64,000 nucleotides of DNA from an uncultured Clostridia bacterium (GCA_947589235.1 CANQAX010000002.1:9054-73053); one strand, 5' to 3'; positions 1 to 45,358 are shown, counted from the first letter of the stretch. Made by a program: numbers and translations. The notes: generated by a model not told the origin, from the letters alone.

Positions 1-241
1 TGATTTCGGCGATTGCGTCTTTGAGTTGTTTTATGTACGCCTCCTTTACAGTATTCCCATGTACGGGAATCGGTATTTTTTTGTGAGTTTGAGAATGTCG
101 AATCGCTACCCCGTGCCCACCGTTTCCTGTTACCTTTTCAAAACCGAAATGCTTTGCGATCAAAAAGAATTCGTCAAACGTAAAATCGTTCGGAATGGGG
201 ATGCGAAAAAACTTATCAATCAATTTTTGCGTAGTAGACAA
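1..241 (-). CDS. HicA-like type II toxin (YcfA/HicA mRNA interferase family), 3' end runs off the window
   Basis: Hand translation of the minus strand from TTG at 241, with a GGAGGAG RBS at 247-253: MSTTQKLIDKFFRIPIPNDFTFDEFFLIAKHFGFEKVTGNGGHGVAIRHSQTHKKIPIPVHGNTVKEAYIKQLKDAIAEI... The G-G-H ... IPxH ... L pattern fits HicA toxins. It is absent from the ORF track because no stop lies in the window. Confidence 0.5.
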   Translation of the reverse strand, partial: MSTTQKLIDKFFRIPIPNDFTFDEFFLIAKHFGFEKVTGNGGHGVAIRHSQTHKKIPIPVHGNTVKEAYIKQLKDAIAEI

Positions 242-364
242 ATTTTCTCCTCCCTATTGGTATCATATACGGTATTACTTATTATATGCTTTTTTATTCG
301 GGTGTCAAGCAATTTTTAGTAATTTTTATGTGAATTGCTTCAAAGATCCGTTTTTGATTATTGA

Positions 365-889
365 AAATTTATTACGAACAGGAACGGAATAGCTTTTGAT
401 GTCAACCCCGCTGCTGTTGAGCTGACAAAAAAGAAATGTGCATTTGAATGCGACAGCGCCTCCACGATACAAATAAAGCAAGGCGACGCGCGGAACCTTG
501 ACTTGCCCGATAAATCGGTGGATTTGATTTGTACTCACCCACCGTATGCCGATATTATCCATTACAGCGAGGACATCGATGGCGATCTCTCGCTCCTTCC
601 AATGAAACCATTCCTGTCCGAAATGGGGAAAGTCGCAGGTGAAAGCTATCGCGTTCTGAAGAAGGACAAGTTCTGCGCCGTCCTCATGGGCGATACCCGT
701 AAAAACGGAATGGTTCAGCCACTCGCCTTTGAAGTCATGCGGCTTTTCGAGCTCGCAGGCTTTAAGACGAAGGAGATCATCATCAAAGAACAGCACAACT
801 GCAAAACAACAGGATATTGGAAAACGAACAGCATTAAGTTCAATTTCCTGTTACTTGCGCATGAGTACTTGTTTGTATTTAAGAAATAA
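365..889 (+). pseudogene. 5'-truncated SAM-dependent DNA (N6-adenine/N4-cytosine type) methyltransferase remnant
   Basis: The open frame after the stop at 362-364 reads ...NGIAFDVNPAAVELTKKK...GDARNLDLPDKSVDLICTHPPYADIIHYSEDIDGDLS... This carries the (D/N/S)PPY catalytic motif IV. The SAM-binding motif I is missing, and only a DPF... trace survives in another frame (ORF 195..392 ends KDPFLIIENLLRTGTE*). No plausible full-length start exists. Confidence 0.55.
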
Positions 890-941
890 AGCAAACATAC
901 CAAAGATATAATTCTATTTTACGGATAAACTAATTGACCAA

Positions 942-977
942 ACAGAGAAGTCGAGAGATTTGCTCTCGACTTCTCTG
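942..977. terminator. Bidirectional stem-loop between the methyltransferase remnant and the flavoprotein gene
   Basis: ACAGAGAAGTCGAGAG-attt-GCTCTCGACTTCTCTGT is a perfect long stem followed by TTTGA. The T-tract is short on both strands. Confidence 0.5.
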
Positions 978-1071
978 TTTGACTCGCCTAAAGGTGTATT
1001 CCGAAAAAAATTTTTGATTCCCCATGGAATACGCCTCTCCGGGGCGGGTCGTTTTTTTATCGGGTGAAATT

Positions 1072-1692
1072 TTATCGGATGAAATTCGTCGAGATCCTTC
1101 GCTCGGGGGCGGGGTATCCGATCCCCTTCTCCCTTCCCGCGGCGATGCACTTCAAGAGCCACGCCGCATTGCGCGCGAGGGTGCGCATGGTCTGGAGCCC
1201 CTCGCCGTCCCGCTTGACCTCTTCGGGCGTGTTCCCATGCACCTGATTCCAATACTGCGACGAGACGACGGGCATGCCCGATATCGTAAAGTACTTGTTG
1301 AGACGGTCGAACGCGGCGGTTGCGCCCCCGCGGCGGCAGCTGACGACCGCCGCCCCGATCTTCCCCGCCATCCGACCGCCGGCGGCGTAGAAGAGTCTGT
1401 CGAGAAAGGCGGTGAGCTGTCCGCTCGGACCCGCGTAGTACACGGGCGAGCCGACGATCATGCCGTCAAACTCATCGAGACGGGAAACGATCTCGTTGAC
1501 GCCGTCCGAAAAGGCGCATTTTCCCGCCGCATGGCACGCCCCGCAGGCGATACACCCCGCAACGGGCTTGTTTCCGATCCAAAAGGTCTCGCTCTCGACG
1601 CCCTCCTCGCGGAGGGTGCGGGCAACTTCGTCGAGCGCGGTCGCGGTGCAGCCCCTCTCATGCGGGCTTCCGTTGAGAAGAAGTAGTTTCAT
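1072..1692 (-). CDS. Flavodoxin-like fold NAD(P)H-dependent FMN reductase / iron-sulfur flavoprotein family
   Basis: ORF 1072..1833 trimmed to the ATG at 1692 (GGAGGAC RBS upstream). The protein reads MKLLLLNGSPHERGCTATALDEV...GSPVYYAGPSGQLTAFLDR..., typical of the NADPH-dependent FMN reductase family. Confidence 0.85.
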   Translation of the reverse strand: MKLLLLNGSPHERGCTATALDEVARTLREEGVESETFWIGNKPVAGCIACGACHAAGKCAFSDGVNEIVSRLDEFDGMIVGSPVYYAGPSGQLTAFLDRLFYAAGGRMAGKIGAAVVSCRRGGATAAFDRLNKYFTISGMPVVSSQYWNQVHGNTPEEVKRDGEGLQTMRTLARNAAWLLKCIAAGREKGIGYPAPERRISTNFIR

Positions 1693-2584: not shown

Positions 2585-4113
2585 TTCTCCCTCCTTGCCG
2601 TCGCGTTGCCCTCTTCGTCGAATCCGTAGAGGTAGCGCTCCTCTTTCCCGTGTGAATCATACCAGACCTGCGCGTAGAAGGGCATCTTCTCCGCGAGAAG
2701 GTCGAACCGCCACGGCGCGGGCATGCAGAAGGGGCACCAGTGCCCGCCCTTCAGAACGGTGTAGGGGCTCGCCTCGAAGGTGTGCCCCTCGCAGCACCGC
2801 CATGTGAGCTTGCGGTAGACGTCCCCCTTCTCCATCTCCTCGCTCAAAAGCTCTCCGCCGCGGAAGGCAGCGGCGCCCCGCATGTCCTCCGTATCCCACT
2901 CGGAGAGCGGCTTGCTCTCGTCGTAGCCGTGATCGAGAAGGCGGGCGTTCTCCCTGTCGCGCATGGCGTCATAGTCGCCGAAGTCCCCCTTCGCGATGAG
3001 CTTGACGCCCTCCCATCTGTCGGGGAGCGCCTTCGCCGCCTCCATGCTGCCGAAGGTCGCGATGACCCTCGCCTCGTCGCCGTTCTTTACCCAGCGGTAG
3101 GGAGAATTGGGGTGATTGCGGAGCCTGCGGAAGAGAAAGAGGTCGATGAGCCCGCGGGGGACGAACTTCCCGAGCGCATACAGCTTGTGCGCCCGCCCGA
3201 TCTCCTTCCAATATTCGTGCACGTCGTCGCGCTGATAGGAGAAGAGCTCCTCGAGCTCGCCCCCGTCGTAAAACCAGAGCCCGTGGAAGTTGCGCGTCGC
3301 GAGCCACTTGGGACGGAAGAACTTTTCCGCCGAGCCGCCGATGATGCCGAACCCGTCCTTGAAGGTGTCGTAGCCCGTCTCCATGCCCTTCTTCCCCGCG
3401 CCGATGTTGTAGATCTTCTTCCAGAATCCGGGGACCTCGCCCTTCCCGTCGCGCTCGAGAATGCGGCGGATGAGATACCCGCTGTCCCGCGAGGAGACCC
3501 ACTCGAGGGGCGCGTTGAGGGCGGTGTGGAACATGAGCCCGTCCGAGATGTTGTCGTGCATCATGTTGGGGTGGAGCATCGCCGTCTGCCGCAGAACCGC
3601 CCAGCAGTCGAGCTCCGCGTCGAGGCAATACCGCTCGCCGTACAGCTTGTCCATGGCATAGTGGTCGAAGGGACTGACGAGGAGAGGGTCCCCCACCCGC
3701 CCGAAGGGGTGCTTCTCGTTGCGGTTGCCGTACAGCGCGACGGTGGAGATGTGAATGTATTTGGGCTGCGGGGACTGCGCCTTCACGGCGTTGACGATGC
3801 ACATCGCGCCCTCGCGGTTGCATTTCTCGCTCGCCTCGGGGCTCGCGTCCGAGCGGGGCGGAATGACCGCCGCCATGTGCACGACGTAGTCCGTTCCCGC
3901 GACGAGCCGTTCGCACGCGACGGGGTCATGGAGCCAGCCGCGCACGATTTGGATCTTCTCCCCGTACGCCTTCCGAAGCCGCTTGGCGAGCTTGTTGTTC
4001 TTCTTTTTCGGCGTGAGCAGGACGCGGATCCACTCCACTTCCCGCAGGGTCATGCTCTGCGCGAGCGCTTCCCTGCCCATATTCCCGCTGACGCCCGTCA
4101 TGGCGATCTTCAT
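2581..4113 (-). CDS. NAD-dependent epimerase/dehydratase (extended SDR) family protein with a long C-terminal extension
   Basis: MKIAMTGVSGNMGRE is a Rossmann GxxGxxG-type N-terminus. VVHMAAV and ...Y..DKLYGER are SDR-like motifs. The protein is 510 aa, with a GAGGGT RBS before the ATG at 4113. Confidence 0.8.
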   Translation of the reverse strand: MKIAMTGVSGNMGREALAQSMTLREVEWIRVLLTPKKKNNKLAKRLRKAYGEKIQIVRGWLHDPVACERLVAGTDYVVHMAAVIPPRSDASPEASEKCNREGAMCIVNAVKAQSPQPKYIHISTVALYGNRNEKHPFGRVGDPLLVSPFDHYAMDKLYGERYCLDAELDCWAVLRQTAMLHPNMMHDNISDGLMFHTALNAPLEWVSSRDSGYLIRRILERDGKGEVPGFWKKIYNIGAGKKGMETGYDTFKDGFGIIGGSAEKFFRPKWLATRNFHGLWFYDGGELEELFSYQRDDVHEYWKEIGRAHKLYALGKFVPRGLIDLFLFRRLRNHPNSPYRWVKNGDEARVIATFGSMEAAKALPDRWEGVKLIAKGDFGDYDAMRDRENARLLDHGYDESKPLSEWDTEDMRGAAAFRGGELLSEEMEKGDVYRKLTWRCCEGHTFEASPYTVLKGGHWCPFCMPAPWRFDLLAEKMPFYAQVWYDSHGKEERYLYGFDEEGNATARREK

Positions 4114-4144
4114 TTGTTACCCTCGTAGAACTTTTAACTGTTTT

Positions 4145-4173
4145 AGTATAGTACAATCCGCGCGGCTTGTCAA
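4145..4173 (-). promoter_or_regulatory. SigA-type promoter of the SDR/ferredoxin/flavoprotein operon
   Basis: Minus strand: TTGACA (4173-4168), 17-nt spacer, TATACT (4150-4145). This lies about 30 nt upstream of the ATG at 4113. Confidence 0.6.
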
Positions 4174-4227
4174 ACGCTGTAATGTTTTTCGGTGACATTT
4201 TCACGATTTTTTTCGGAAAAAATCTCC

Positions 4228-4242
4228 GCCCCCGCCGATTGG
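4228..4242. repeat. Left copy of the 15-bp direct repeat GCCCCCGCCGATTGG flanking the AT-rich islet
   Basis: Identical 15-mer at 4228-4242 and 6544-6558. On the minus strand the left copy is followed by GGAGATTTTTTCC. Confidence 0.85.
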
Positions 4243-4401
4243 GCGGTGTTCGTGTGGATTCGGAATCGAACGGCTTGGCAATTGTATAGACCGCTTTTTT
4301 TTGCAACAAAAGCGGGCAAAATTTCTCTTTGAGGGGAAACAGGATAAGGATTGTGGGCATTCCTGCCCCGGTCGCCCCTTAACAGGCGGGAAACCCGCTC
4401 A

Positions 4402-4530
4402 TTATTTCTTTTTCGTCGAGTTCTTCTTTTTCGCATAGTACGCGGCAATTGCCGCTTTTTGTTTTTTCCGCGCCTCCGGAGTTTTGGCTTTTACATAGCT
4501 ACTTCTCTTTTTTTCTTTATTGAAGAACAT
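4402..4530 (-). CDS. Possible 42-aa highly basic peptide
   Basis: The ATG at 4530 overlaps the end of the 4517..5287 gene. The peptide reads MFFNKEKKRSSYVKAKTPEARKKQKAAIAAYYAKKKNSTKKK*. A small hairpin GCGGGaaaCCCGC (4386-4398) follows. There is no clear RBS, so this is speculative. Confidence 0.25.
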   Translation of the reverse strand: MFFNKEKKRSSYVKAKTPEARKKQKAAIAAYYAKKKNSTKKK

Positions 4531-5287
4531 TCTGTTCGCCCTCCATGCTTACAACTGCTTCAAAGTCGCATTCGTCACAGTAAGCCTGCAATCGCTCTAT
4601 TAGTCTTTCACTCGGCTTGAATTTTTGTTTTATGAAATAGACATCCTGCATATCGTACAGCGGTGTTGCCGCGATCTTACATTCGTTGATATCATAAAAT
4701 ACGCAGTAATTTCCGAGGTCTGTCCAATATCCGTAAAAATAATCAAACGCGAATACTTTGTGTCGCTCATTTGTTTCTTTGCTTCGGAAATATAATATCC
4801 GATATTTACAGCAAGCAGTAGAAAAAATATCCAGTTCCCTGTCGAATATCAACGCTTCCCTTTTGTATAACGGAAGCATACTATATTCATTCAGCAATCC
4901 GCGGATATATACGGATACCTCTTGTGCCGTTATCATGGTCTCCGACGTTTCTATTTCATCAAAGACGGAAATGTTTTCTTTTGAAGGACGGATCCAAATG
5001 GATTCTTCCAGTTTTTCCAGATCCTCATCGTTGAAATACACCCTGTCAATGACGGTGTTTACGGCGTTATAGATATTTTCACTGTCTGTCCGATTGTATT
5101 CGGTCTTTAATATTTTTTCGATTTGGTTGCGTCGTTCTTTGCGCACTTCCACGAGCGTGGGAATGAGCTTATTCAAAAGCCCATTCTTATTTGACTTTCC
5201 GTTTTTTGTAAATTCACAGCGCAGCGCGTCGATTTCCAAAATGTTCGCCACAAAGGACGAAACCTTCACTTTGATTTTGTCTTTCAT
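4517..5287 (-). CDS. Hypothetical protein, possibly a WYL-like ligand-sensing regulator
   Basis: ORF 4517..5317 trimmed to the ATG at 5287 (GGAG RBS 8 nt upstream). It uses AT-rich codons. The C-terminal stretch YRILYFRSKETNERHKVFAFDYFYGYWTDLGNYCVFYDINECKIAATPLYDMQDVY loosely follows the WYL-domain beta pattern. No family could be assigned confidently. Confidence 0.7.
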   Translation of the reverse strand: MKDKIKVKVSSFVANILEIDALRCEFTKNGKSNKNGLLNKLIPTLVEVRKERRNQIEKILKTEYNRTDSENIYNAVNTVIDRVYFNDEDLEKLEESIWIRPSKENISVFDEIETSETMITAQEVSVYIRGLLNEYSMLPLYKREALIFDRELDIFSTACCKYRILYFRSKETNERHKVFAFDYFYGYWTDLGNYCVFYDINECKIAATPLYDMQDVYFIKQKFKPSERLIERLQAYCDECDFEAVVSMEGEQNVLQ

Positions 5288-5308
5288 TCGGTAACTCCTA
5301 TCATTCAC

Positions 5309-5337
5309 ATTATACAAACTGTCTACCCATATATCAA
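5309..5337 (-). promoter_or_regulatory. Consensus promoter for the 4517..5287 gene
   Basis: Minus strand: TTGATA (5337-5332), 17 nt, TATAAT (5314-5309). The spacer contains the repeated box GGTAGACA (TGTCTACC on the plus strand). Confidence 0.6.
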
Positions 5338-5402
5338 GAAAATATAGATAAATCGTAAATATTGTCTACCATAAAACCCGAAATACGGCAGACGGAATTT
5401 TG

Positions 5403-5431
5403 TTGAAGTGCAAGTATTTTTTTGCTATAAT
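5403..5431 (+). promoter_or_regulatory. Consensus promoter for the 5491..6485 three-gene operon
   Basis: TTGAAG (5403-5408), 17 nt, TATAAT (5426-5431). Confidence 0.6.
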
Positions 5432-5490
5432 GAAAATGTAAGCGGAGCAAGGCGCCCCTCTGCTTGACAAAATTTAAGGAAGGTATTAAA

Positions 5491-5865
5491 ATGAGTATAG
5501 TTGGTTTTTTGCTTAAGCCAAAAAAAGAAATGGCGAAAAAAAATACGAAGTATGTAAGGGTCGGTAAATACCATCTGACTTCCCATGCGCAGAACCGGAT
5601 TGTTCAAAAGGAAAGAGCAATGGACAAGATCGATGTTTTGGACAATCTGTTTACAAAACCAAACGCCATTACGCAAGTGAAATACAATAAAAACGGCAAA
5701 CCCTCATATGATCGTGTGGGCAAGAGAATTACGACAAGTATAAATCCAACAAACAACAATGTTGCGACTTGCCGACCTGTAAGTAAAAAAGAAATGAAAC
5801 AATTCGGCTTGACCGATATCGGGAAAAAAGGAGGAAAAAGGAAATATGTTAAGCGAAAGTCTTAA
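5491..5865 (+). CDS. Hypothetical basic protein, weak DUF4258 / BECR-fold RNase-toxin-like pattern
   Basis: ATG at 5491 after an AAGGAAGG RBS. The protein reads MSIVGFLLKPKKEMAKKNTKYVRVGKYHLTSHAQNRIVQKERAMDKIDVLDNLF...YDRVGKRITTSINPTNNNVATCRPVS... and ends in a lysine-rich tail. The H..HA..R ... D.L ... T.I.P...V.T pattern resembles DUF4258-type toxins, from memory only. Confidence 0.7.
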   Translation: MSIVGFLLKPKKEMAKKNTKYVRVGKYHLTSHAQNRIVQKERAMDKIDVLDNLFTKPNAITQVKYNKNGKPSYDRVGKRITTSINPTNNNVATCRPVSKKEMKQFGLTDIGKKGGKRKYVKRKS

Positions 5866-6121
5866 AAGCAGATTTACGCCGAGAGCAAAAGAGGAAGCCA
5901 AAAAACTTTTATCCGAAATGAAGATAGCGGAGTTGAACGACGACAACCTCTATGAGGTCGAAGTCGAGCTTGACACAAGGGTAAGCGGATTGGTCACGAT
6001 GAATGAATGTGAACATCAACCGATAGATCATGAGCTTTTGGACATCTACGATACACTGACGGATATTATTCTTGAGCACGAAGAAGAGATAAATTTCCTG
6101 AACAAGTTGTTTTTGGAATAA
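5846..6121 (+). CDS. Hypothetical small acidic protein
   Basis: Strong RBS AAAGGAGGAAAAAGGAAAT before the ATG at 5846. It overlaps the previous gene by 20 nt. The protein is 91 aa and rich in D/E (…NDDNLYEVEVELD…EHEEEINFLNKLFLE). Confidence 0.7.
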   Translation: MLSESLKSRFTPRAKEEAKKLLSEMKIAELNDDNLYEVEVELDTRVSGLVTMNECEHQPIDHELLDIYDTLTDIILEHEEEINFLNKLFLE

Positions 6122-6164
6122 AAGAAAAAGGGAATGGGGCGGCAAAAAAATTTCGGAGGAAATT

Positions 6165-6485
6165 ATGAAAAAAAGAAATAAAAAGACAGAACAAGAAGCG
6201 CCGCTCTTTTGCGTCAGTGAAGAAGCAATTGATTTTATTCGCACATACATCCTTCCCGTTAAACATATCGACTTTATAGACGAGGATATATTTTATGATA
6301 TTTTTGAAATTGCGGAAAGCTGGGAACTCGATATGATCGACGAAGACGGATTTGACAAAACAGATGATCCGTTTATAGAACGGGATACAATGGGAATGAA
6401 TTTCGTCTCTGAAATATCGGGGCAAGACGCCGAGCCGGATCTCGACGACCTGAACCGCCGTTTGGGATTGCGCAAAACAAATTAA
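6165..6485 (+). CDS. Hypothetical small acidic protein
   Basis: RBS GGAGGAAATT before the ATG at 6165. The protein is 106 aa and very acidic (…IDEDIFYDIFEIAESWELDMIDEDGFDKTDDPFIE…AEPDLDDL…). Confidence 0.7.
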   Translation: MKKRNKKTEQEAPLFCVSEEAIDFIRTYILPVKHIDFIDEDIFYDIFEIAESWELDMIDEDGFDKTDDPFIERDTMGMNFVSEISGQDAEPDLDDLNRRLGLRKTN

Positions 6486-6543
6486 ACAACCGGGCAAGAG
6501 CGTGTCCCGATTAAACCCTTGTCTTTATGATTCCCCATGGAAT

Positions 6544-6565
6544 GCCCCCGCCGATTGGCGGGGGC
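6544..6565. terminator. Perfect hairpin GCCCCCGCC-gatt-GGCGGGGGC; includes the right copy of the 15-bp direct repeat
   Basis: On the plus strand it is followed by AATTTTTCATTTCTTTT, which terminates the islet operon. On the minus strand it begins 6 nt after the tex stop but lacks a U-tract. Confidence 0.7.
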
Positions 6566-6571
6566 AATTTT

Positions 6572-8746
6572 TCATTTCTTTTCGGGTCTGTCCTTCCGCA
6601 TCGTGAGGGAGATGCGCCCGCGCCTCTCGTCGACGTCGAGCACGCGGACGGTGACGACGTCCCCCACCGAGAGCACCTCGGACGGGTGGCGGATATAGCG
6701 GTCGCCGATCTCGGAGATGTGCACGAGCCCGTCCTGATGGACGCCGATGTCGACGAACGCGCCGAAGTCGATGACGTTCCGCACCGTTCCCCTCAACTCC
6801 ATGCCCCTCTTCAAGTCCTTGATCTCGAGCACGTCCGTCCGCAGAACGGGCGCGGGGAGCTCGTCGCGCGGGTCCCGCCCCGGCTTCATGAGTTCGCCGA
6901 TGACGTCGTACAGCGTGGGAAGCCCTACGCCGCACTCCTTTGCCGCCCGCTCGTCCCCGTAGTCATGGAGACGCTCGCGGAGGTGACCGATTTTCCCCGC
7001 CCGCACCTCGGACATGGTATAGCCGCAGAGCGCGAGGAGCTTCTCCGCCGCCCCGTAGCTCTCGGGGTGGACGGCGGTGTTGTCGAGCACCTCTTCGCTC
7101 TCGGGCACGCGCAGGAAGCCCGCGCATTGCTCGAATGCCTTGTCCCCGAGCCCCTTCACCTTGCGGAGGGCGCGCCGCGAGCGGAAGGGACCGTTCTCCT
7201 CGCGGTACTTCACGATGTTCTCCGCGACGCTCGCGTTGAGCCCCGCAACGTGCGAGAGAAGGGGCGCGGAAGCCGTGTTGACGTCCACGCCGACGGCATT
7301 CACGCAGTCCTCCACGACGCCGCCGAGCGCCTGCGAGAGCCGCTTTTCGGGCATGTCGTGCTGATATTGCCCGACGCCGATGGACTTGGGCTCGATCTTG
7401 ACGAGCTCGGCGAGCGGGTCCTGCAGCCGCCGCGCGATGGAGACCGCGGAGCGGAGATTGACGTCGAAGTCGGGGAACTCGCGCGCCGCGAGCGGGGAAG
7501 CGGAATAGACGGACGCGCCCGCCTCGTTCACGATGATATAGGAGAGGTCGGGCAGGCGGAGGGACGAGATGAGTTCCACCGTCATGCGCTCCGTCTCGCG
7601 GCTCGCCGTGCCGTTTCCGATGGCGATGTGCTTGACGCCGTGTCTCTTGATGAGGTCGGAGAGCTTTCCGATGCACTCCCTCTTCTGCCGCTCCCCGTGG
7701 GTGGGATAGACGACCGCGGTGTCGAGCACCTTGCCCGTGCCGTCGACGACGGCGACCTTGCACCCCATGCGGTAGCCGGGGTCGAGCCCCATGGTGACGA
7801 ATCCCTTGACGGGCGGCTGCATGAGGAGGGGGCGCAGGTTGAGGGCGAACTGCCCGATCGCGCCCTCGGACGCCCGCTCGAAGAGGGCGGCGCGCACCTC
7901 GCGCTCGAGGCTCGGCTCGATGAGGCGGTCGTAGGCGTCCTCACAGCAGGCGCGGACAAAGGACGTCGCGGCGCACGGCTTTCCCACCATGCGGCGGACG
8001 GCGAGCGCGACCGCGTACTCGTGCGGGATCTCGACGCCGACGCGGAGGATTTCCTCCCGCTCCCCGCGGAATGCCGCGAGCACCTGATGCCCCGCGACGG
8101 AGGAGACGGGCGCCGAGAAGTCATAGTAGTTGCGGTAGACGGTGTCCTCGGGGTCCTTCTTCGCCGCCGAGGAGCGGAGCACGCCGTGCGCCATGGCGAA
8201 TTCGCGGAGCGATTTGCGGAGCGCCGCGTCCTCCGAGATCCGCTCGGCGATGATGTCGCCCGCGCCCGCAAGCGCCTCCTCCGCGCTCTCCACCCCCTTC
8301 TCGGGGTCGATGTAGTCCCGTGCTGCGGCAAGGGGAAGCGGGACGTCGGGCTGCTGCGCGAAGAGAAGATCGGCGAGCGGCTCCAGCCCCTTCTCCCTTG
8401 CAATCGTGGCGCGGGTGCGGCGCTTCTGCTTGTACGGGCGGTATAAATCTTCGACCTCGGCGAGCGTCGCGGCGCCGTCGATGCGGGCGGAGAGCTCTTC
8501 GGTGAGCTTCCCCTGCCCCTCGATTGCCCGCTTTACCTCGGTGCGGCGGGCTTCCAACCCGCGGAGGTACTCGAGCCGCTCGGACAGGGAACGGATGGTT
8601 TGGTCGTCCGTCGCGCCGTGCATTTCCTTGCGGTAGCGCGCAATGAAGGGGACGGTGTTCCCCTCGTCGAGCAGGGAGACGATGTTTTTGACGTGCTCCT
8701 CGCTCTTGTGAAATTCTTCGGCTAAAATCTGTACAACATTCGGCAT
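6572..8746 (-). CDS. tex: Tex-like transcription accessory protein (YqgF/HhH/S1 domains)
   Basis: ORF 6572..9016 trimmed to the ATG at 8746. The protein begins MPNVVQILAEEFHKSEEHVKNIVSLLDEGNTVPFIARYRKEMHG... and ends in an S1 domain ...GTVRNVIDFGAFVDIGVHQDGLVHISE.... Confidence 0.92.
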   Translation of the reverse strand: MPNVVQILAEEFHKSEEHVKNIVSLLDEGNTVPFIARYRKEMHGATDDQTIRSLSERLEYLRGLEARRTEVKRAIEGQGKLTEELSARIDGAATLAEVEDLYRPYKQKRRTRATIAREKGLEPLADLLFAQQPDVPLPLAAARDYIDPEKGVESAEEALAGAGDIIAERISEDAALRKSLREFAMAHGVLRSSAAKKDPEDTVYRNYYDFSAPVSSVAGHQVLAAFRGEREEILRVGVEIPHEYAVALAVRRMVGKPCAATSFVRACCEDAYDRLIEPSLEREVRAALFERASEGAIGQFALNLRPLLMQPPVKGFVTMGLDPGYRMGCKVAVVDGTGKVLDTAVVYPTHGERQKRECIGKLSDLIKRHGVKHIAIGNGTASRETERMTVELISSLRLPDLSYIIVNEAGASVYSASPLAAREFPDFDVNLRSAVSIARRLQDPLAELVKIEPKSIGVGQYQHDMPEKRLSQALGGVVEDCVNAVGVDVNTASAPLLSHVAGLNASVAENIVKYREENGPFRSRRALRKVKGLGDKAFEQCAGFLRVPESEEVLDNTAVHPESYGAAEKLLALCGYTMSEVRAGKIGHLRERLHDYGDERAAKECGVGLPTLYDVIGELMKPGRDPRDELPAPVLRTDVLEIKDLKRGMELRGTVRNVIDFGAFVDIGVHQDGLVHISEIGDRYIRHPSEVLSVGDVVTVRVLDVDERRGRISLTMRKDRPEKK

Positions 8747-9608: not shown

Positions 9609-9785
9609 TTGCGATTGCTTCCGTTCGTCGCTGCGCCTTTTCCGCACGCTTTTGCGAATGGTCCCGTTCGCCGCTGCGTCTTCTCCGCACGCTTTTGCGA
9701 TTGCTTCCGTCCGCCGCTGCGGCTTTCCCGCACGCTTTTGCGAATGGTCCCGCTCGCCGTTTCGGCTTCTCGGATTTGATATTCC
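9609..9785. repeat. Tandem array, 43-bp period, about 4 units alternating two subtypes
   Basis: TTGCGA anchors sit at 9609, 9652, 9695 and 9738. A typical unit is TTGCGATTGCTTCCGTTCGTCGCTGCGCCTTTTCCGCACGCTT. Confidence 0.85.
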
Positions 9786-9879
9786 TCTTTTTTGTACCCC
9801 ATTCCGACGTTTTTCTAACACGGGTCGGAAAAATTCCTTTTGCTTTCGTGTGAATCAAATATTCCAACCCCCTCCCCTA

Positions 9880-10303
9880 CCCCTCCCCCTTACAAAGGGG
9901 GAGGGCAAGATATGGTACCCATACCCCTCCCCCTTACGAAGGGAGAGGGCAAGATATGGTACCCTACCCCTCCCCCTTGCGAAGGGGGAGGGGTAGGGTA
10001 CCCATCGCCCCTCGTAAAGGGACAAGAAGAGACAGGAGCACACGCCCCCTCCATTGGAGGGGTGGAGCGGCGCACCATGTTCAACAGCCCAGTGGGCTGT
10101 GAACGCGCCGCGACAGGAGCGCAGGAAAGCGCGACGGGGATTCGGCGGTCCCTGCCGCCGAATCGCCCGCAAGGGCGGGGGTGGGCTGAACGCGAGCGAA
10201 TCGCGGGGTTTCCGTCATTTCGACGACGCGTAGCGGCGCACGAGCCATACGACTTGTCATTTCGACGACGCGTAGCGGCGCACGAGCGAACCGCTGGGTT
10301 TCT
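9880..10303. repeat. Cluster of GC-rich hairpin words plus partial GTCATTTCGA units
   Basis: CCCCTCCCCCTTACAAAGGGGGAGGG-type palindromes occur three times at 9885-10000. GTCATTTCGACGACGCGTAGCGGCGCACGAGC occurs at 10213 and 10256. Confidence 0.8.
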
Positions 10304-10455
10304 GTCATTTCGAGCGGAGCGGAGTATCGCATGAGCCACGGGCGAATGCGATACGGAGCGAAGTCGAGAAATCTATGCTCAAGAGTGCAGAGTGGTTTCG
10401 TTTATTCTCAATAAGGTTGAGATGTCTCGACTACGCTCGACATGACATTATTGTA
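10304..10455 (+). repeat. Copy 1 of a ~150-nt structured dispersed element
   Basis: TGTCATTTCGAGCG (10304-10317) pairs with CGCTCGACATGACA (10434-10447). GTATCGCAT pairs with ATGCGATAC (10324/10346). GTCGAGAAATCT pairs with AGATGTCTCGAC (10363/10420). Other copies lie at 26511, 26896(-), 36257 and 48535(-). Confidence 0.85.
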
Positions 10456-10543
10456 CGCCGTATCGTGACACAAGCCGCGGCGGGACGACATGACACTATT
10501 GTGCGTCGGGACGGAACACATGCCACGGCAAAACAATACGAAA

Positions 10544-30192: not shown

Positions 30193-32682
30193 TCAAGAAA
30201 CCGCGGATCCAAATTCGAGAGAAGTCATCAATCCCGACATGATTGCCGCCTCTTTTTCCGGACAAATGCACGCCAATATATTTGCCAAAGTGTTGATTAC
30301 TCTATCGATATATGCCCCGGGGCTCTTACGATACAATTCGATGTACAATAGGATAGAATCAGTATAACTTTTCAACGCCTCACTTGTTTTGTTAAATTTC
30401 AGGTACGCATCGCCGAAATGATTGCACGTGCGGGCAAGTTCATTGGAAAAGGAAAACTGCTTATATATTTGCTTGGCAGCGAGATAATTTTCCTCTGCGC
30501 CATTCAGTTCCCTCTTTTGGACAAACAACTCGGCAAAAAGACAATGGATCGCCGCGAGTTCCGCATCCGAACTTTGACCTGCGAATGACAAAATTCTCCG
30601 TTGCATCCGCGCTCCTTCTTTGAGAAATTGTTCTGCTCGATTGAGATCCCCCGTCTGCAAATACAGTTCGGCAAGATTTTTATACGCTTCGACAACGCTC
30701 CTTTCGTTTGCTTCCGGATTTTGCTGTGCCATTTTTTGCCGTATCTTCAATGATTGCAAACACCACGCTTCGATCATGTCCGTATCTATCTTCTTACGAT
30801 AATACGAAAAATCCGTGATTGGAGGATCCTCCTTGTCGAAAACCGCAGCGTCGATTTTTTTGCTACATGCTGCAAACTTTTTCGCATCCTTCTCGTCCCC
30901 GTAATTTGTGTACTCGCGTGACAAGATTTCGCATATCAATTTCAACAGCGACGCAAACGCTTGGGCTTTGTCTCGCTTTGTTTTATGCTGCATGAGCGCG
31001 TAACGCAATTTGAACGCCTCGACAAAATAGCGATCCTTTTGCCTATGCGATAAAATCGCGCAATTGATATGCGCCAATCTGGCACTGATATCGGCCACAT
31101 ATTTTTCATAATCGGCATGCGTTTTTATGAGAATGTTGCATACATCGAGCGCTTCTTTCAGCAAATCTTCCGCCTCGCGGTGCCGATTCGTTTGATAATA
31201 CAGTTCCGCAAGCCAAATATTGATGTCCGCCTTTTTGATCTGCTTTTCATCGGTCTCATCAGCAAAATCGTAAATTATCAATGCGTCGCGGTATAACGCT
31301 TCCGCACGCGCATGCCGATTGAGACAATAATATACTTTGGCGAGATCGATACATGAATCCGCATAGTCGAATTTGAAACTCGAATCTGCTTGAGACAATT
31401 CCCTTCTTATCTGTACGCAACGCGACAAGATATTATCTGCTTCTTGGTATTTGCCGAGTTTATAATATGCCAACCCGCAAAGATTTTCGGCATCTCCTTT
31501 GCGCCTTTTCCCATTGATATCGTCCGTTTTGAAAAACAAATCGAGTGAAAGACAAACCGAGATGCACTTTTCATACTGCGTCTGTTGAAATAAAAATAAC
31601 GCATATTCATACATAACTTTTTTGGGCATCTGCGGGCGGTTTTCGACTTGCTCCACCGCTTTGATATAATTTGCATGAACCTCGTCCCAACGCGCCTGCG
31701 CTTTTAGCGCAAGAATTCGCATACGGTATTCTTCTACGATTGCAATTCTTTCTCCGATAACATTTTTTTCCATCTCATCCAATTCTGCCACGTTGTTCTC
31801 AATATCCGCAACATTCAGCGCTTCGAGAACTCCGTCATAATCGCCAGAATCGAAACACTTGATTGCTTTTCTTATATTATCCGAAATCGCTTTACCGCTT
31901 GTTGTGAGCGATACGATGCTGTTTCCGATATCCAAGATATTCCCCGCCAGTTCATCAATATCTGCTTTCAATCTATCCCTTTCTTTTGCCGCTTTGCTCA
32001 ATTCGCGGTATACTTTGTAATTCCCCTCATCCGCCGCATACATTGCCTGTAATCTTTGGCTATTTTCCACCGCCTTCGTATAGTTCTCCCAAAGTTCGGT
32101 ATATTCTGCATTCTCGGCAAAAAGCGGGATGCGCCCCACCGGGATGATGCTGCTATCGGCGCACACAATAGCGTTGTCCTTCACGGTTATATCGGCTTTT
32201 ACAAAACCGTGCACCTGTAATTGAGTAATGATCCCCAATTTCAATGAATCAATATGCGAGTACTCCCTGTGATAGTGCAACAGTTCCTCATCGATCATGC
32301 GCATTACATTTTTGATTTCTTCGGAGGGGTCCTCATCTGCCGTCGTTTTTTTGAAATATACTACGATCTTCGGCTTGTTGCAAATTCGATTGGAATCGAG
32401 CGCGATCTTAAGTTCGTGAAATGTAACCTCTCCCACCTTATGCCAAAAAATAACGAAGCACATGTCCGAGCCTTGAATGAGTTCATCTAACGATGCTTGC
32501 GATCCTTCAATGCGAATTGAGTGATCCATCGTATCGCTTTCACATTTGTACAACTTGATAAAGATCCCGGATTCTTGATAGATATTGTTCAGTTGGTTGA
32601 TAAAATCGCCTATCGCAAGACGATCATATTCCAAATCCGTGATGGAAGATGCCAAGAAAAATGTTACGGTTTTTTTATCCAT
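30193..32682 (-). CDS. TIR-like/DUF4062-like N-terminal domain + coiled coil + multi-TPR protein (829 aa) in an AT-rich island
   Basis: ORF 30193..32781 trimmed to the ATG at 32682. The N-terminus is MDKKTVTFFLASSITDLEYDRLAIGDFINQL...IKLYKCES...CFVIFWHKVGEVTFHELKIAL...KPKIVVYFKK. A coiled-coil stretch follows (…KAAKERDRLKADIDELAGN…). There are at least 6 TPR-like units (LAYYKLGKYQEADNIL, LAKVYYCLNRHARAEALY, LAELYYQTNRHREAEDLL, LAELYLQTGDLNRAEQFL ...). Confidence 0.85.
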   Translation of the reverse strand: MDKKTVTFFLASSITDLEYDRLAIGDFINQLNNIYQESGIFIKLYKCESDTMDHSIRIEGSQASLDELIQGSDMCFVIFWHKVGEVTFHELKIALDSNRICNKPKIVVYFKKTTADEDPSEEIKNVMRMIDEELLHYHREYSHIDSLKLGIITQLQVHGFVKADITVKDNAIVCADSSIIPVGRIPLFAENAEYTELWENYTKAVENSQRLQAMYAADEGNYKVYRELSKAAKERDRLKADIDELAGNILDIGNSIVSLTTSGKAISDNIRKAIKCFDSGDYDGVLEALNVADIENNVAELDEMEKNVIGERIAIVEEYRMRILALKAQARWDEVHANYIKAVEQVENRPQMPKKVMYEYALFLFQQTQYEKCISVCLSLDLFFKTDDINGKRRKGDAENLCGLAYYKLGKYQEADNILSRCVQIRRELSQADSSFKFDYADSCIDLAKVYYCLNRHARAEALYRDALIIYDFADETDEKQIKKADINIWLAELYYQTNRHREAEDLLKEALDVCNILIKTHADYEKYVADISARLAHINCAILSHRQKDRYFVEAFKLRYALMQHKTKRDKAQAFASLLKLICEILSREYTNYGDEKDAKKFAACSKKIDAAVFDKEDPPITDFSYYRKKIDTDMIEAWCLQSLKIRQKMAQQNPEANERSVVEAYKNLAELYLQTGDLNRAEQFLKEGARMQRRILSFAGQSSDAELAAIHCLFAELFVQKRELNGAEENYLAAKQIYKQFSFSNELARTCNHFGDAYLKFNKTSEALKSYTDSILLYIELYRKSPGAYIDRVINTLANILACICPEKEAAIMSGLMTSLEFGSAVS

Positions 32683-32698
32683 ATCTCTCTTTTGTGTA

Positions 32699-32735
32699 AA
32701 AAGAGGCCGTTTCCTTTCGGAACGGCCTCTTTTCT
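32699..32735. terminator. ppdK intrinsic terminator (bidirectional A-tract/T-tract hairpin)
   Basis: AAAAGAGGCCGTT-tcctttcg-GAACGGCCTCTTTT. Confidence 0.85.
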
Positions 32736-32740
32736 CTTGT

Positions 32741-45194: not shown

Positions 45195-45282
45195 TGCGAC
45201 ACAATAAAATACTAACCATATAAAAGATACATTGGCGTCGGTGTATCCTTATTACCTTATATGGTTAGTTGATTGTGTCGCA
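45195..45282 (+). ncRNA. About 88-nt extended nested hairpin in the 5' leader (unclassified cis-regulatory RNA candidate)
   Basis: TGCGACACAAT (45195-45205) pairs with ATTGTGTCGCA (45272-45282). ACTAACCATATAA pairs with TTATATGGTTAGT. GATACA pairs with TGTATC at the tip. Confidence 0.45.
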
Positions 45283-45304
45283 ACAATTCGGGGATACTCG
45301 AAGC

Positions 45305-45336: not shown

Positions 45337-45358
45337 GCCCGCGAAAGGAGGAACAGCT

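What the first reader, a model, noticed from the sequence alone, without database searches (positions are those of the whole stretch)
4228..6558. A 2.3-kb AT-rich islet bracketed by a perfect 15-bp direct repeat sits inside the tex terminator
The 15-mer GCCCCCGCCGATTGG occurs at 4228-4242 and again at 6544-6558. Everything between is AT-rich: 21/60 G+C at 4741-4800 versus 42/60 at 6601-6660, by hand count.

The junctions read as follows on the minus strand (tex sense):
- The right copy completes the perfect hairpin GCCCCCGCC-AATC-GGCGGGGGC 6 nt after the tex stop. It is followed by non-U sequence (ATTCCATGGGGAATC...).
- The left copy is followed by GGAGATTTTTTCC.

Deleting 4243-6557 in silico rebuilds a textbook intrinsic terminator for tex. 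Just beyond it lies the intact SDR-operon promoter (4145-4173).

This is the signature of a site-specific insertion with target or att duplication. No integrase, transposase or recombinase is encoded in the islet or anywhere else in the window.
Basis: partly seen in the sequence, partly recalled or inferred. Interest (0 to 1): 0.8.

Follow-up and report, generated by a model that had tools for sequence, protein, structure and literature searches.

The report
Recombinase-less gene cassette in tex terminator
A 2.3-kb AT-rich block of five small genes has been inserted into the transcription-terminator hairpin behind the housekeeping gene tex; it belongs to an apparently undescribed family of cassettes that carry no enzyme for moving themselves yet sit beside terminator hairpins at many different places in related gut bacteria.

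Summary
GCCCCCGCCGATTGG occurs exactly twice (4228-4242, 6544-6558). It brackets 2.3 kb of 40% G+C inside flanks of 64-67% G+C.

It is an insertion. Eleven related genomes keep tex, then the SDR gene, separated by a 28-525 bp spacer (one of 1.5 kb), and none has the islet genes.

The same module turns up as a ~2-kb AT-rich islet in at least ten other chromosomal contexts. It consists of a ~255-aa protein with an RHH-WYL fold, a 43-aa basic peptide, and a divergent operon of small proteins. Between two genome pairs it is more conserved (84% nt) than tex (76%).

In the window's subfamily the islet ends carry an inverted terminal motif, GAWTCCCYATGRA-ACACC, usually followed by an outward-facing terminator hairpin. 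The same motif ends a second islet at 1016-1030.

An independent insertion behind leuS (L112) has a different perfect 15-bp repeat, again the loop plus distal arm of the local terminator. The repeat is therefore copied from the target, not a conserved att core. Four other copies show only inverted repeats.

No recombinase is encoded in the islet. My best reading is a non-autonomous, terminator-associated mobile cassette. How it moves is unresolved, and no empty site was found in the same species.

The parts
4145..4173 (-). SDR-operon promoter (TTGACA-17-TATACT). This is host sequence just outside the islet.
   Evidence: Consensus scan scores 11/12. The same promoter, with an upstream TGTCAT..GTTACAG motif, is conserved in the tex-SDR spacers of relatives.
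4215..4227 (-). Host U-tract of the original tex terminator (GGAGAUUUUUUCC on the minus strand).
   Evidence: Sequence. In the in-silico empty site it follows the 10-bp stem.
4228..4242 (.). Left copy of the 15-bp direct repeat. On the minus strand it is the loop plus 3' arm of the hairpin. It is preceded by the element-like arm ACACCGC, which makes a weak hybrid hairpin.
4243..4261 (-). Terminal inverted motif at the end nearest the 43-aa gene (minus strand, read outward: GAATCCACACGAACACCGC).
   Evidence: Motif scan gives 3 hits in the window against 0.19 expected. It aligns with the ends of L081, L100, L112 and L118.
4262..4401 (-). Conserved subterminal non-coding stretch (~140 nt here; ~160 nt when the terminal motif at 4243-4261 is included). 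Function unknown.
   Evidence: 73-75% identical to L081-L084 and L100 over 149-165 nt. No Rfam family matched and there is no convincing consensus structure.
4402..4530 (-). ORF for a 42-aa highly basic peptide. It overlaps the end of the WYL gene and is conserved next to it in every locus (43-45 aa in relatives).
   Evidence: ORF list. A gene of 43-45 aa is called at this position in L081-L118. Coding sequence is conserved in the alignment.
4517..5287 (-). 256-aa protein with an RHH-like N-terminus and a WYL-like C-terminal domain. Predicted regulator, not a recombinase.
   Evidence: At least 288 homologues (the 120 best listed are 66-100% identical; full-length ones reach 91%), none with a Pfam domain. 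AlphaFold2 model has pLDDT 83. Foldseek top hit is 6OAW (E = 8.5e-7), deposited as a CRISPR Cas-related protein, which I recognise as WYL1; then DriD, BrxR, CapW and PafBC.
5288..5490 (.). Divergent promoter region with two conserved GGTAGACA repeats, which may be an operator.
   Evidence: Promoter-like sites at 5337-5309 (-) and at 5464-5492 and 5403-5431 (+). The repeats are conserved across loci in the alignment.
5491..5865 (+). 124-aa conserved basic protein (133 aa if the TTG start at 5464 is used). Invariant residues fall in H-A-Q-N-R and S-Y-x-R-x-G-K...T-T-x-I-N-P. Possible toxin or effector.
   Evidence: 141 homologues, none with a Pfam domain. Alignment A2. AlphaFold2 model has pLDDT 89, but the fold search was lost. 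Only one homologue hits DUF4258, weakly (E = 0.013).
5846..6121 (+). 91-aa acidic protein of unknown function.
   Evidence: ORF list. Homologous genes are present in L085, L107 and L112. No family hits.
6165..6485 (+). 106-aa acidic protein of unknown function.
   Evidence: ORF list. A 106-aa gene sits at the same position in L081, L083, L088 and L100. No family hits.
6529..6543 (+). Terminal inverted motif at the tex-proximal end (GATTCCCCATGGAAT, read outward). It is itself a small hairpin.
6544..6565 (.). Intact 9-10 bp G+C hairpin. Its first 15 nt are the right copy of the direct repeat. On the + strand it is followed by a U-rich tract, so it can terminate the islet's + strand operon. In the tex sense it lacks a U-tract.
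   Evidence: (terminator-like site at 6543-6566, + strand).
6572..8746 (-). tex (the host gene whose terminator is occupied).
   Evidence: Pfam domains Tex_N, Tex_central_region, Tex_YqgF, HHH_3, HHH_9 and S1. 74-77% amino-acid identity to the closest Tex proteins in MAGs labelled uncultured Clostridia or Candidatus Gallimonas.
1016..1058 (+). End of a second AT-rich islet (window 1 to ~1030). It has the same GATTCCCCATGGAAT motif, then a G+C-rich imperfect inverted repeat and a T-run, 14 nt before the stop of a convergent FMN-reductase-like gene.
   Evidence: The ~60 nt before the motif are 80% identical to the L100 and L081 ends. Cargo is a 5'-truncated N6/N4 methyltransferase (E = 2e-6) and a HicA-like protein (E = 6e-5, below Pfam's cut-off). 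Folding of this stretch is not better than shuffles.

Best explanation
The islet is one copy of a family of ~2-kb mobile cassettes that cannot move on their own.

**Composition.** It carries a predicted RHH-WYL regulator with a 43-aa basic peptide. Divergently transcribed from these is an operon of two or three small proteins. Its ends carry an inverted terminal motif, GAWTCCCYATGRA-ACACC(CGCC).

**What is shown.** It landed in the G+C-rich hairpin of the tex terminator. The loop and distal arm of that hairpin (15 bp) are now present on both sides. An intact hairpin abuts tex and one end of the cassette. The other end contributes its own C-rich terminal arm to a second, hybrid hairpin in front of the original U-tract and the SDR promoter. 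Both cassette operons therefore still run into a stem-loop, and the SDR promoter stays shielded.

**What is inferred.** Movement must depend on something encoded elsewhere. I rank the candidates as follows:
1. A transposase acting in trans that recognises the inverted ends and makes a long staggered cut in hairpin targets.
2. Short-homology recombination or replication template switching between the cassette's terminal hairpin arms and similar terminator arms.

**What the cargo does.** Most likely it is a WYL-controlled toxin, addiction or defence module. That would explain why the cassette persists once inserted. This part is inference only.
For: **It is an insertion**
- Tex, the SDR gene and the flavodoxin-like gene are syntenic in 10 relatives, and an eleventh (L004) shows tex-SDR before its contig ends. 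The tex-SDR spacer is 28-525 bp in ten of them and 1546 bp in L007. In most it holds a terminator hairpin with a T-run followed by the conserved promoter.
- tblastn finds none of the five islet proteins in 80 tex loci.
- The reconstructed 142-nt empty spacer of the window has the same layout.

**It is a mobile unit**
- The same gene module appears as an AT-rich islet behind rplQ, near spoVG, beside yjeF and pemK, next to yafQ-relB, between yunB and spoVAC, behind dnaJ, behind leuS, between a peptidase M20 gene and a MatE gene, and beside degV.
- Islet nucleotide identity is 84.1% and 83.7%, against 76.6% and 75.5% for tex, in the same two genome pairs.

**The ends**
- Outward-read ends align to one motif. 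Nine or ten of the thirteen ends aligned continue into a loop, a G-rich arm and a T-run.
- Inverted terminal repeats are significant in L081, L100 and L118 (1 of 1000 shuffles each) and in L114 (6 of 1000).
- The motif occurs 3 times in the window against 0.19 expected. All three are at islet edges.

**The repeat is copied from the target**
- L112 carries a perfect 15-bp repeat with a different sequence, TTTCAGGCGGTTTTT. It is made of the leuS terminator's loop, 3' arm and T's, with 0 of 1000 shuffles reaching it.
- The hairpin loops are in direct orientation in the window, L112 and L081.
- L101 has an 11-nt direct repeat of a spoVAC terminator arm.

**No recombinase, and where it is found**
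- No recombinase is encoded in the islet.
- The module is absent from plasmid, phage and IMG/VR collections.

**Precedents**
- RM units flanked by inverted repeats with an 8-bp target duplication and no transposase (PMC2853133).
- Mobile insertion cassettes (PMC3913671, PMC4337579).
Against: - No empty tex-SDR site was found in the same species. All three assemblies of this species that I saw are filled, so recent mobility is not shown.
- Four of six complete copies (L081, L100, L118, L114) have no direct repeat outside the inverted ends.
- In the window the inverted motif is weak by itself, roughly 9 of 13 positions by eye.
- A 15-bp duplication is long for a transposase.
- In both repeat-flanked copies, the copy of the repeat next to the 'short' end also resembles the canonical terminal arm (GCCCCCGCC against ACACCCGCC; AAAAACCGCC against GAAAAACAC). 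The border between element and target therefore cannot be fixed from sequence alone.
- The function of the cargo is inferred from one fold match and from gene arrangement only.
Confidence: 0.6

Rival explanations
1. Both hairpins belong to the element. The cassette is capped at each end by its own outward-facing terminator as part of a long terminal inverted repeat, as in L081. Because the stems are palindromic, two inverted copies also read as direct copies. The 15-nt identity would then come from gene conversion or recombination between the two palindromic ends, with no target duplication. On this reading, the terminator that reappears on in-silico deletion is a trivial consequence of deleting between two copies of one hairpin.
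For: - Nine or ten of the thirteen aligned ends have a hairpin whose inner arm is the conserved ACACC(CGCC) tail of the terminal motif.
- In L081 the two ends are alike through arm, second arm and T-run in inverted orientation (1 of 1000 shuffles).
- L118 has such a hairpin next to a divergent gene, where no host terminator is expected.
- The window's tex-side arm GCCCCCGCC differs from the canonical ACACCCGCC at only 2 of 9 positions.
Against: - The loops are direct, not inverted, in the window (AATC in both) and in L112 (TTTCA in both).
- The hairpin stem and loop sequences differ from site to site, while the rest of the element is 84% identical.
- Most of the eleven relatives have a G+C-rich terminator hairpin with a T-run at this position behind tex.
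- The U-tract and promoter beyond the left copy are host sequence.
- The hybrid hairpin pairs poorly, which is not what a maintained element terminator should look like.
Confidence: 0.2
2. Site-specific integration by a tyrosine or serine recombinase encoded elsewhere. This would be a cis-mobilisable, satellite-type element. The 15-mer would be the att core shared by attL and attR.
For: - A perfect short direct repeat brackets the islet and the islet has no integrase.
- Large serine recombinase genes lie next to family members in L118 and L103.
Against: - The bracketing repeat differs completely between independent insertions: CCAATCGGCGGGGGC, TTTCAGGCGGTTTTT and AAACGCTCGCT.
- Four copies have no direct repeat.
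- Insertion sites are behind many unrelated genes.
- An attP whose core matched each new target would have to be rebuilt at every move.
Confidence: 0.07
3. There is no dedicated mobility system. The module spreads between genomes on incoming DNA. It is fixed by host recombination or replication template switching at short homologies between G+C-rich terminator stems (CCGCC/GGCGG). The duplication and the chimeric hairpin are by-products of this. It would be akin to the 'insertion with long target duplication' described for RM genes.
For: - Both junctions in the window and in L112 fall inside hairpin arms that resemble the element's terminal arm. One hairpin is chimeric, with an indel at the arm-loop border.
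- The target stems all contain CCGCC/GGCGG or ACACCC/GGGTGT.
- Repeat length and presence vary: 15, 15, 11, a 68-nt imperfect repeat in L088, or none.
- L102 shows another small module added between two terminators without any duplication.
- A precedent is described in PMC2853133.
Against: - A conserved inverted terminal motif that extends inward beyond the hairpin arm (GAWTCCCYATGRA) is not needed by this model. It suggests a protein-binding site.
- The homologies are only 5-10 bp.
- Two independent repeats of exactly 15 bp would be a coincidence.
Confidence: 0.13

Closest known systems
Mobile insertion cassettes (MICs) and cargo-carrying MITE-like elements, such as MIC231 of Bacillus cereus (from my own knowledge), the qnrD and qnrS2 mics (PMC3913671) and Tn3-derived MICs of Xanthomonas (PMC4337579)
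   Same: Short unit bounded by imperfect inverted terminal repeats. It carries passenger genes and no transposase, and is found at different sites. A target-derived direct repeat is present at some copies.
   Different: - No cognate transposase or autonomous relative is known.
- The duplication is 15 bp, longer than usual, and is absent at most copies.
- The ends merge into terminator hairpins, and insertions sit in or next to intrinsic terminators.
- So far the element is found only on chromosomes of uncultured Clostridia, not on plasmids.
Transposon-like RM units and 'insertion with long target duplication' (Furuta, Abe and Kobayashi 2010, PMC2853133)
   Same: Compact units of selfish or defence-type genes with no mobility gene. 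[quoted passage not shown] They were recognised by genome comparison. The window's second islet carries a methyltransferase remnant and a HicA-like gene.
   Different: - The cargo here is not an RM system.
- The duplication (15 bp) lies between their two classes (8 bp, and more than 30 bp).
- That paper does not mention terminators at all.
WYL-domain regulators of defence and stress modules (BrxR, CapW, DriD, PafBC) and the protein of PDB entry 6OAW, which I recognise as WYL1, the RHH-WYL accessory protein of Cas13d
   Same: The predicted fold of the 256-aa protein: an RHH-like N-terminus plus a WYL-like beta-barrel domain. It sits head-to-head with a small operon and a repeated operator-like motif.
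   Different: - There is no detectable sequence similarity (Pfam WYL is not hit).
- No BREX, CBASS or CRISPR genes lie nearby.
- The regulated genes are uncharacterised proteins of 91-124 aa.
Mobile elements that target palindromes or terminators: group IIC introns, which insert after intrinsic terminators, and IS1397, ISKpn1 and IS110-family elements, which insert in REP palindromes (from my own knowledge)
   Same: Insertion in or next to a G+C-rich stem-loop downstream of genes, a site that does little harm to the host.
   Different: No reverse transcriptase, intron RNA or transposase is present. Rfam finds nothing. Those elements are autonomous.

Membership tests
Non-autonomous inverted-repeat cassette (MIC / cargo MITE) | Terminal inverted repeats | tested here: met
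   The family-wide motif is GAWTCCCYATGRA-ACACC. Inverted repeats are significant in L081, L100, L118 and L114. In the window the match between the two ends is weak, roughly 9 of 13 positions by eye, but both ends match the family motif.
Non-autonomous inverted-repeat cassette (MIC / cargo MITE) | Target-site duplication of fixed length flanking the inverted repeats | tested here: inconclusive
   The window and L112 each have 15 bp, perfect and target-derived. L101 has 11 bp. L081, L100, L118 and L114 have none. No empty sites were available.
Non-autonomous inverted-repeat cassette (MIC / cargo MITE) | No transposase inside, with passenger genes present | tested here: met
   Five ORFs have no Pfam, PHROG or PADLOC recombinase hit. 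The largest protein has a WYL-regulator fold.
Non-autonomous inverted-repeat cassette (MIC / cargo MITE) | A cognate autonomous element with the same ends that supplies a transposase in trans | not testable with these tools
   Nothing with this motif other than islet ends was found in the window or in the 118 loci (1.48 Mb). The rest of the source genome is not available.
Integrase-mobilised island or cis-mobilisable element (att-flanked) | Identical att core at the junctions of independent insertions | tested here: not met
   The repeat sequences differ between the window, L112 and L101 and are absent elsewhere. Among the 118 loci the 15-mer occurs only in the same-species contigs L110 and L111.
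Integrase-mobilised island or cis-mobilisable element (att-flanked) | An integrase in the element or adjacent to it | tested here: not met
   None is in the islet. Serine recombinases near L118 and L103 belong to neighbouring insertions.
Integron gene cassette | An attC site, no promoter of its own, and location in an array next to intI/attI | tested here: not met
   The islet has its own divergent promoters. It is a single unit between housekeeping genes, and no IntI-like gene was seen in any locus. The R/L box consensus was judged only by eye.
Group IIC intron (inserts after terminators) | Intron RNA domains and a reverse transcriptase ORF | tested here: not met
   Rfam at E <= 1 returned only two sub-threshold hits on the hairpin itself. 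There is no RT domain.
Insertion with long target duplication (Nobusato/Furuta) | Target duplication longer than 30 bp, no other mobile-element features, shown against an empty site | tested here: not met
   The duplication is 15 bp (19 with an indel). Inverted terminal motifs are present. The empty site is known only from other genera. The criteria are taken from PMC2853133.
WYL-domain regulator | WYL (Sm-like beta-barrel) domain joined to a DNA-binding domain | tested here: met
   AlphaFold2 model has pLDDT 83 and pTM 0.79. Foldseek gives probability 1.0 to 6OAW, DriD and BrxR. This is met at fold level only, because Pfam WYL is not hit.
Toxin-antitoxin or defence cassette (cargo) | A recognisable toxin or effector with a cognate neutraliser | tested here: inconclusive
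   There are no PADLOC or Pfam hits. One of 28 homologues of the 124-aa protein weakly hits DUF4258 (E = 0.013). The fold search of its model was lost.

The most novel reading that the evidence does not exclude
These cassettes may use a previously undescribed way of moving, in which the terminal arm of the element mimics one arm of an intrinsic-terminator stem. On this reading the element is directed into terminator hairpins by that short complementarity, either by a structure-recognising enzyme supplied in trans or by the replication and recombination machinery alone. The hairpin is rebuilt on both sides, so the insertion is transcriptionally insulated and nearly harmless. If so, terminators would be a general landing pad for recombinase-less defence or addiction cassettes in high-G+C gut Clostridia.
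Probability: 0.2. Interest if true: 0.85.

Novelty: new variant of a known kind. Interest (0 to 1): 0.6.

Why it matters
How small toxin-antitoxin, restriction-modification and defence modules move between genomes without any mobility gene is a long-standing loose end.

This family gives that question something concrete to work with:
- a defined terminal motif;
- a defined class of landing site, namely terminator hairpins;
- at least ten independent insertions;
- two cases with an exact target-derived duplication.

A survey of matched filled and empty sites, or a mobilisation assay, could therefore settle the mechanism.

The family also adds an uncharacterised RHH-WYL regulator family (about 265 clusters at 50% identity) and its conserved small partners as candidates for a new defence or addiction system in uncultured gut Clostridia.

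For genome annotation, it shows that AT-rich islets wedged into terminators can be recognised as units even when they encode no recombinase.

Tried and rejected
**Exact-sequence look-ups**
- The window's SDR protein and its 257-aa islet protein are not on record.
L110 and L111 are filled.

**Collection scans**
- The metagenome scan with the WYL alignment gave only 11 loci, mostly short.
- The IMG/VR scan found none.
- tblastn against plasmids and phages found nothing.

**Annotation of the five islet proteins**
- Pfam, PHROGs and PADLOC gave nothing.
- Profile searches against PDB sequences gave nothing credible.
- Per-member Pfam scans of both alignments gave only noise plus one weak DUF4258 hit.
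- An NCBIfam scan failed on a coordinate error and was not repeated.
- The fold search of the 124-aa model was lost on the server and the model could not be recovered.

**RNA**
- Rfam on 3900-6900 returned only sub-threshold hits to the hairpin itself.
- RNAalifold on the conserved ~160-nt subterminal stretch found no supported structure.

**Explanations considered and rejected**
- Chance repeat.
- A genome-wide repeat word. The 15-mer occurs twice in the window and otherwise only in same-species contigs. The 9-mer arm occurs 5 times against 1.8 expected, three of them in this feature.
- Loss of ancestral genes in all relatives, which is contradicted by composition, the different contexts and the identity excess.
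- Integron cassette, group II intron and a prophage remnant.

**Other dead ends**
- I looked for a short target duplication just outside the inverted ends in L100, L118 and L114 and found none.
- I looked for a relative to act as an empty-site proxy for the second islet. Only one distant hit (L022) turned up, and it was not informative.
- A literature search for elements with terminator targeting and inverted repeats returned nothing relevant.

Full report
**1.

GCCCCCGCCGATTGG occurs at 4228-4242 and 6544-6558 and nowhere else in the window. Allowing 2 mismatches there are 4 matches against 0.44 expected, and no shuffle of 100 reached 4. Two of the four are the exact copies, one is the other arm of the same hairpin, and one is an unrelated site at 63825. 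The repeat finder lists the pair independently.

A shuffle test on the two junction segments gives 0 of 1000. Every other 15-mer repeated at 1-5 kb spacing lies inside a repeat-protein gene at 45-48 kb.

The enclosed 2.3 kb is 40.2% G+C, against 63.9% and 66.8% on either side.

The junction details are also as described:
- tex, with its full set of Pfam domains, stops at 6572-6574.
- A 9-10 bp G+C stem follows after 6 nt. It folds at -24 kcal/mol (z = -3.9) and has no U-tract in the tex sense.
- On the + strand the same stem is followed by a U-rich tract. It is called a terminator for the islet's own rightward genes.
- The left copy is followed on the minus strand by GGAGATTTTTTCC and then by the SDR promoter, TTGACA-17-TATACT.
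- Deleting 4243-6557 rebuilds the stem plus a U-run (-27.5 kcal/mol). There are 5 nt between stem and U-run, so 'textbook' is slightly generous.

Two refinements:
- With one indel the repeat extends to 19 nt.
- The copy on the SDR side is a hybrid that pairs over only about 5 bp (ACACCGCC-CAATC-GGCGGGGGC).

**2. It is an insertion**

A scan of one genome per species with the Tex protein found its closest relatives at 74-77% amino-acid identity. They are MAGs from rabbit, chicken and ruminant gut, labelled uncultured Clostridia or Candidatus Gallimonas.

In ten of them tex is followed by the SDR gene and the flavodoxin-like gene, as in the window. An eleventh (L004) shows tex-SDR before its contig ends. 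The tex-SDR spacer is 28-525 bp in ten of them and 1546 bp in L007. In most it holds a G+C-rich hairpin with a T-run, followed by a conserved TGTCAT...GTTACAGGGTTGACA...TATACT promoter region.

The window's spacer is 2458 nt. With the islet and one repeat copy removed it is 142 nt and has exactly that layout. None of the five islet proteins is encoded anywhere in the 80 tex loci.

**3. The islet is a recurrent unit**

The 256-aa protein has at least 288 homologues. The 120 best listed are 66-100% identical, full-length ones reach 91%, and none has a Pfam domain. An exhaustive profile search finds only about 265 clusters at 50% identity.

Wherever a long contig was available, the gene sits in the same module:
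- a 43-45-aa basic peptide gene overlaps its end;
- a head-to-head operon of two or three small genes lies across a conserved promoter region that contains two GGTAGACA repeats.

The module is always an AT-rich patch of about 2 kb in a G+C-richer chromosome, and its neighbours differ each time:

| Locus | Neighbouring genes |
|---|---|
| L081-L084 | end of the rpoA-rplQ operon |
| L085-L087 | 2-hydroxyacid dehydrogenase and spoVG |
| L088 | yjeF and pemK |
| L100 | pemK and yafQ-relB |
| L101-L106 | yunB and spoVAC |
| L107-L109 | dnaJ |
| L112 | leuS |
| L113-L117 | a peptidase M20 gene and a MatE gene |
| L118 | degV and a serine-recombinase island |

For two MAGs both the tex locus and the islet are available. 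The islet is 84.1% and 83.7% identical in nucleotides to the window's islet, while tex is only 76.6% and 75.5% identical. The islets therefore share a more recent ancestor than their hosts do.

The module was not found in plasmid, phage or IMG/VR collections.

**4. What it encodes**

None of the five ORFs hits Pfam, PHROGs or PADLOC.

*The 256-aa protein.* The AlphaFold2 model (pLDDT 83, pTM 0.79) matches PDB entry 6OAW best (E = 8.5e-7). That entry is deposited as 'a CRISPR Cas-related protein', and I recognise it as WYL1, the RHH-WYL accessory protein of Cas13d. The next matches are the WYL regulators DriD, BrxR, CapW and PafBC. This is the fold of a nucleic-acid-sensing regulator, not of a recombinase.

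*The 124-aa protein.* It is well conserved, with 141 homologues and invariant residues in H-A-Q-N-R and S-Y-x-R-x-G-K...T-T-x-I-N-P. It models confidently (pLDDT 89). The structure comparison was lost, and the only family hint is one weak DUF4258 hit.

*The 91-aa and 106-aa proteins.* Both are acidic and have no relatives of known function.

Calling the cargo a WYL-controlled toxin, addiction or defence module is inference from fold and gene arrangement only.

**5. The ends**

I read each end outward. The ends of the window islet, L081, L100, L112 and L118 align to one motif: GAWTCCCYATGRA, a few bases, then ACACC(CGCC). L114 has a more divergent version. At nine or ten of the thirteen ends aligned this runs on into a loop, a G-rich arm complementary to the C-rich tail, and a T-run. 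That is an outward-facing intrinsic terminator.

Inverted terminal repeats are significant in L081, L100 and L118 (1 of 1000 shuffles each) and in L114 (6 of 1000).

In the window the motif occurs three times against 0.19 expected:
- at the two islet ends (6529-6541 on the + strand, 4249-4261 on the - strand);
- at 1016-1028.

The third site is the right edge of another AT-rich islet, which the window cuts at its start. There it is followed by a G+C-rich imperfect inverted repeat, a T-run and the stop of a convergent FMN-reductase-like gene. Folding of that stretch is not better than shuffles. The ~60 nt before the motif are 80% identical to the L100 and L081 ends.

The cargo of this second islet is different: a 5'-truncated N6/N4 methyltransferase and a HicA-like protein. 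The ends are therefore a portable feature shared by islets with different contents.

**6. What the direct repeat is**

L112 is the key comparison. Its islet lies immediately after the leuS terminator, AACCGCC-GAATTTCA-GGCGGTT-TTTTT. It is bracketed by a perfect 15-nt direct repeat, TTTCAGGCGGTTTTT (4785-4799 and 7058-7072; 0 of 1000 shuffles).

As in the window, the order is:
1. the host gene;
2. the intact hairpin;
3. the islet;
4. a second copy of the loop and distal arm, preceded by an element-like C-rich arm (CACCCCCGC).

The islet is in the opposite orientation relative to the host gene.

The two repeats have the same length and unrelated sequences, and each is made from the local terminator. 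That is what a target duplication looks like. It is not what a conserved att core looks like.

Two weaker observations point the same way:
- L101 has an 11-nt direct repeat of an arm of the spoVAC terminator.
- The hairpin loops of L081 are also closer in direct than in inverted orientation.

**7. What remains ambiguous**

L081, L100, L118 and L114 have no direct repeat. In L081 the two hairpins are inverted copies, down to an asymmetric GCC bulge and the T-run.

In both repeat-flanked copies, the repeat copy next to the 'short' end also resembles the canonical terminal arm:
- GCCCCCGCC against ACACCCGCC;
- AAAAACCGCC against GAAAAACAC.

The sequence can therefore be read in three ways:
- a 15-bp staggered-cut duplication;
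- an insertion into the loop with a 4-5 bp duplication plus an element arm that matches the target stem;
- recombination or template switching between similar hairpin arms.

All three imply that the element end and the target stem resemble each other, which may itself be part of the mechanism.

A fourth reading is that both hairpins belong to the element and were homogenised afterwards. Against this: the loops are direct, most relatives have a G+C-rich terminator hairpin at this position behind tex, and the U-tract and promoter beyond the left copy are host sequence. I could not exclude it without an empty site from the same species.

All three assemblies of this species that I saw are filled, so there is no evidence of current mobility.

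**8. Comparison with what is known**

The closest concepts are two:
- mobile insertion cassettes and cargo-carrying MITE-like elements, which have inverted ends, passenger genes and no transposase (PMC3913671, PMC4337579);
- the 'transposon-like' restriction-modification units, and the 'insertion with long target duplication', described by Furuta and colleagues (PMC2853133).

The family differs from both in four ways. The transposase is unknown. The duplication is long and inconsistent. The ends merge into terminators. The landing sites are terminator hairpins.

It fails the defining tests for an att-flanked island, an integron cassette and a group IIC intron.

I found no description of this family in the sources searched, but that search was limited.

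**9. Verdict**

This is a real feature and a real insertion. The 'att' alternative is not supported.

The result is a new family of non-autonomous cassettes associated with terminators. I rate that as a new variant of a known kind. The mechanism is open and interesting, and it could be settled with matched empty sites or a mobilisation assay.

Noticed in passing
window 1-1075: A second AT-rich islet (41% G+C), cut by the start of the window. It carries a HicA-like gene (minus strand, start near 241, running off the window), a 5'-truncated N6/N4 DNA methyltransferase (383-889, no start codon before the TTG at 503; the motif I region upstream appears frameshifted) and a terminator-like hairpin at 944-975. 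It ends with the same GATTCCCCATGGAAT motif (1016-1030), then a G+C-rich imperfect inverted repeat and a T-run, in front of the stop (1072) of a convergent FMN-reductase-like gene.
   Followed up: partly
window 4174-4205 (minus strand), and the tex-SDR spacers of L007, L009, L015, L016, L017, L018, L019 and L027: A motif TGTCAT(A)...N...GTTACAG(G)GTTGACA lies just upstream of and overlapping the -35 box of the SDR-operon promoter. It is conserved across genera, so it may be an operator for an unknown regulator.
   Followed up: no
window 5300-5380 (minus strand), and the same position in L081-L118: Two copies of GGTAGACA about 40 nt apart flank the promoter of the WYL gene. They are conserved in every family member aligned and are a candidate binding site for the RHH-WYL protein.
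   Followed up: no
window 9609-10530: A 1-kb intergenic stretch is filled with several different tandem repeats (periods of 43/86, 44, 42 and 48 nt, 1.9-3.7 copies). Some are G+C-rich palindromic units of the CCCCTTCGGGG type. Similar REP-like units fill the tex-SDR spacers of L008 and L017 and the left flank of L081 and L083.
   Followed up: partly
window 30193-32781 (minus strand): An AT-rich (43-47% G+C) gene for an 862-aa protein with many TPR repeats and an uncharacterised N-terminal domain, set in a 60% G+C neighbourhood. It is possibly another acquired gene. No terminal motif of the islet family lies nearby.
   Followed up: partly
window 45269-48214 (+ strand): A lower-G+C gene for a 981-aa protein with a predicted signal or lipoprotein leader and many near-identical ~23-aa repeats (leucine-rich, 'IPDSVTSIG'). 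It accounts for all the other repeated 15-mers in the window.
   Followed up: no
L102 5920-6595 compared with L101 5920-5935: Within one species, one strain has an extra 660-bp module (a 73-aa HTH_19 protein plus a 101-aa membrane-like protein) between the islet's terminator and the spoVAC terminator. It replaces 14 nt and has no visible duplication. This is a second example of small modules accumulating between terminators.
   Followed up: partly
L088 4328-4395 and 6282-6350: A 68-nt imperfect direct repeat (about 80% identical). The right copy is part of the islet's conserved subterminal non-coding stretch, and the left copy lies outside the other end. It looks like the remnant of an earlier or tandem copy at the same site.
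   Followed up: no
L107 4063-4077 and 5960-5974: A 15-nt direct repeat (14 of 15), GTCGAAAAAGGTWTC, brackets the islet. The right copy lies inside the last codons of dnaJ. An inverted pair (CTGGCAAAGATAAATATC and GATATTTCACTTTGCAAG) lies inside the repeats. Its meaning is unclear.
   Followed up: partly
L118 4949-8219 and L103 7595-10414: Large serine recombinase genes lie directly next to family members. In L118 there are also an OLD-family nuclease and AAA proteins. In L103 two recombinase genes interrupt spoVAD. In L118 the adjacent islet end has the terminal motif but no hairpin.
   Followed up: no
L100 3815-4085: The 270-nt AT-rich spacer between a pemK-like gene and the islet end contains about five copies of GATTTGACA(Y) / GTTTGA(W)A. 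Their function is unknown.
   Followed up: no
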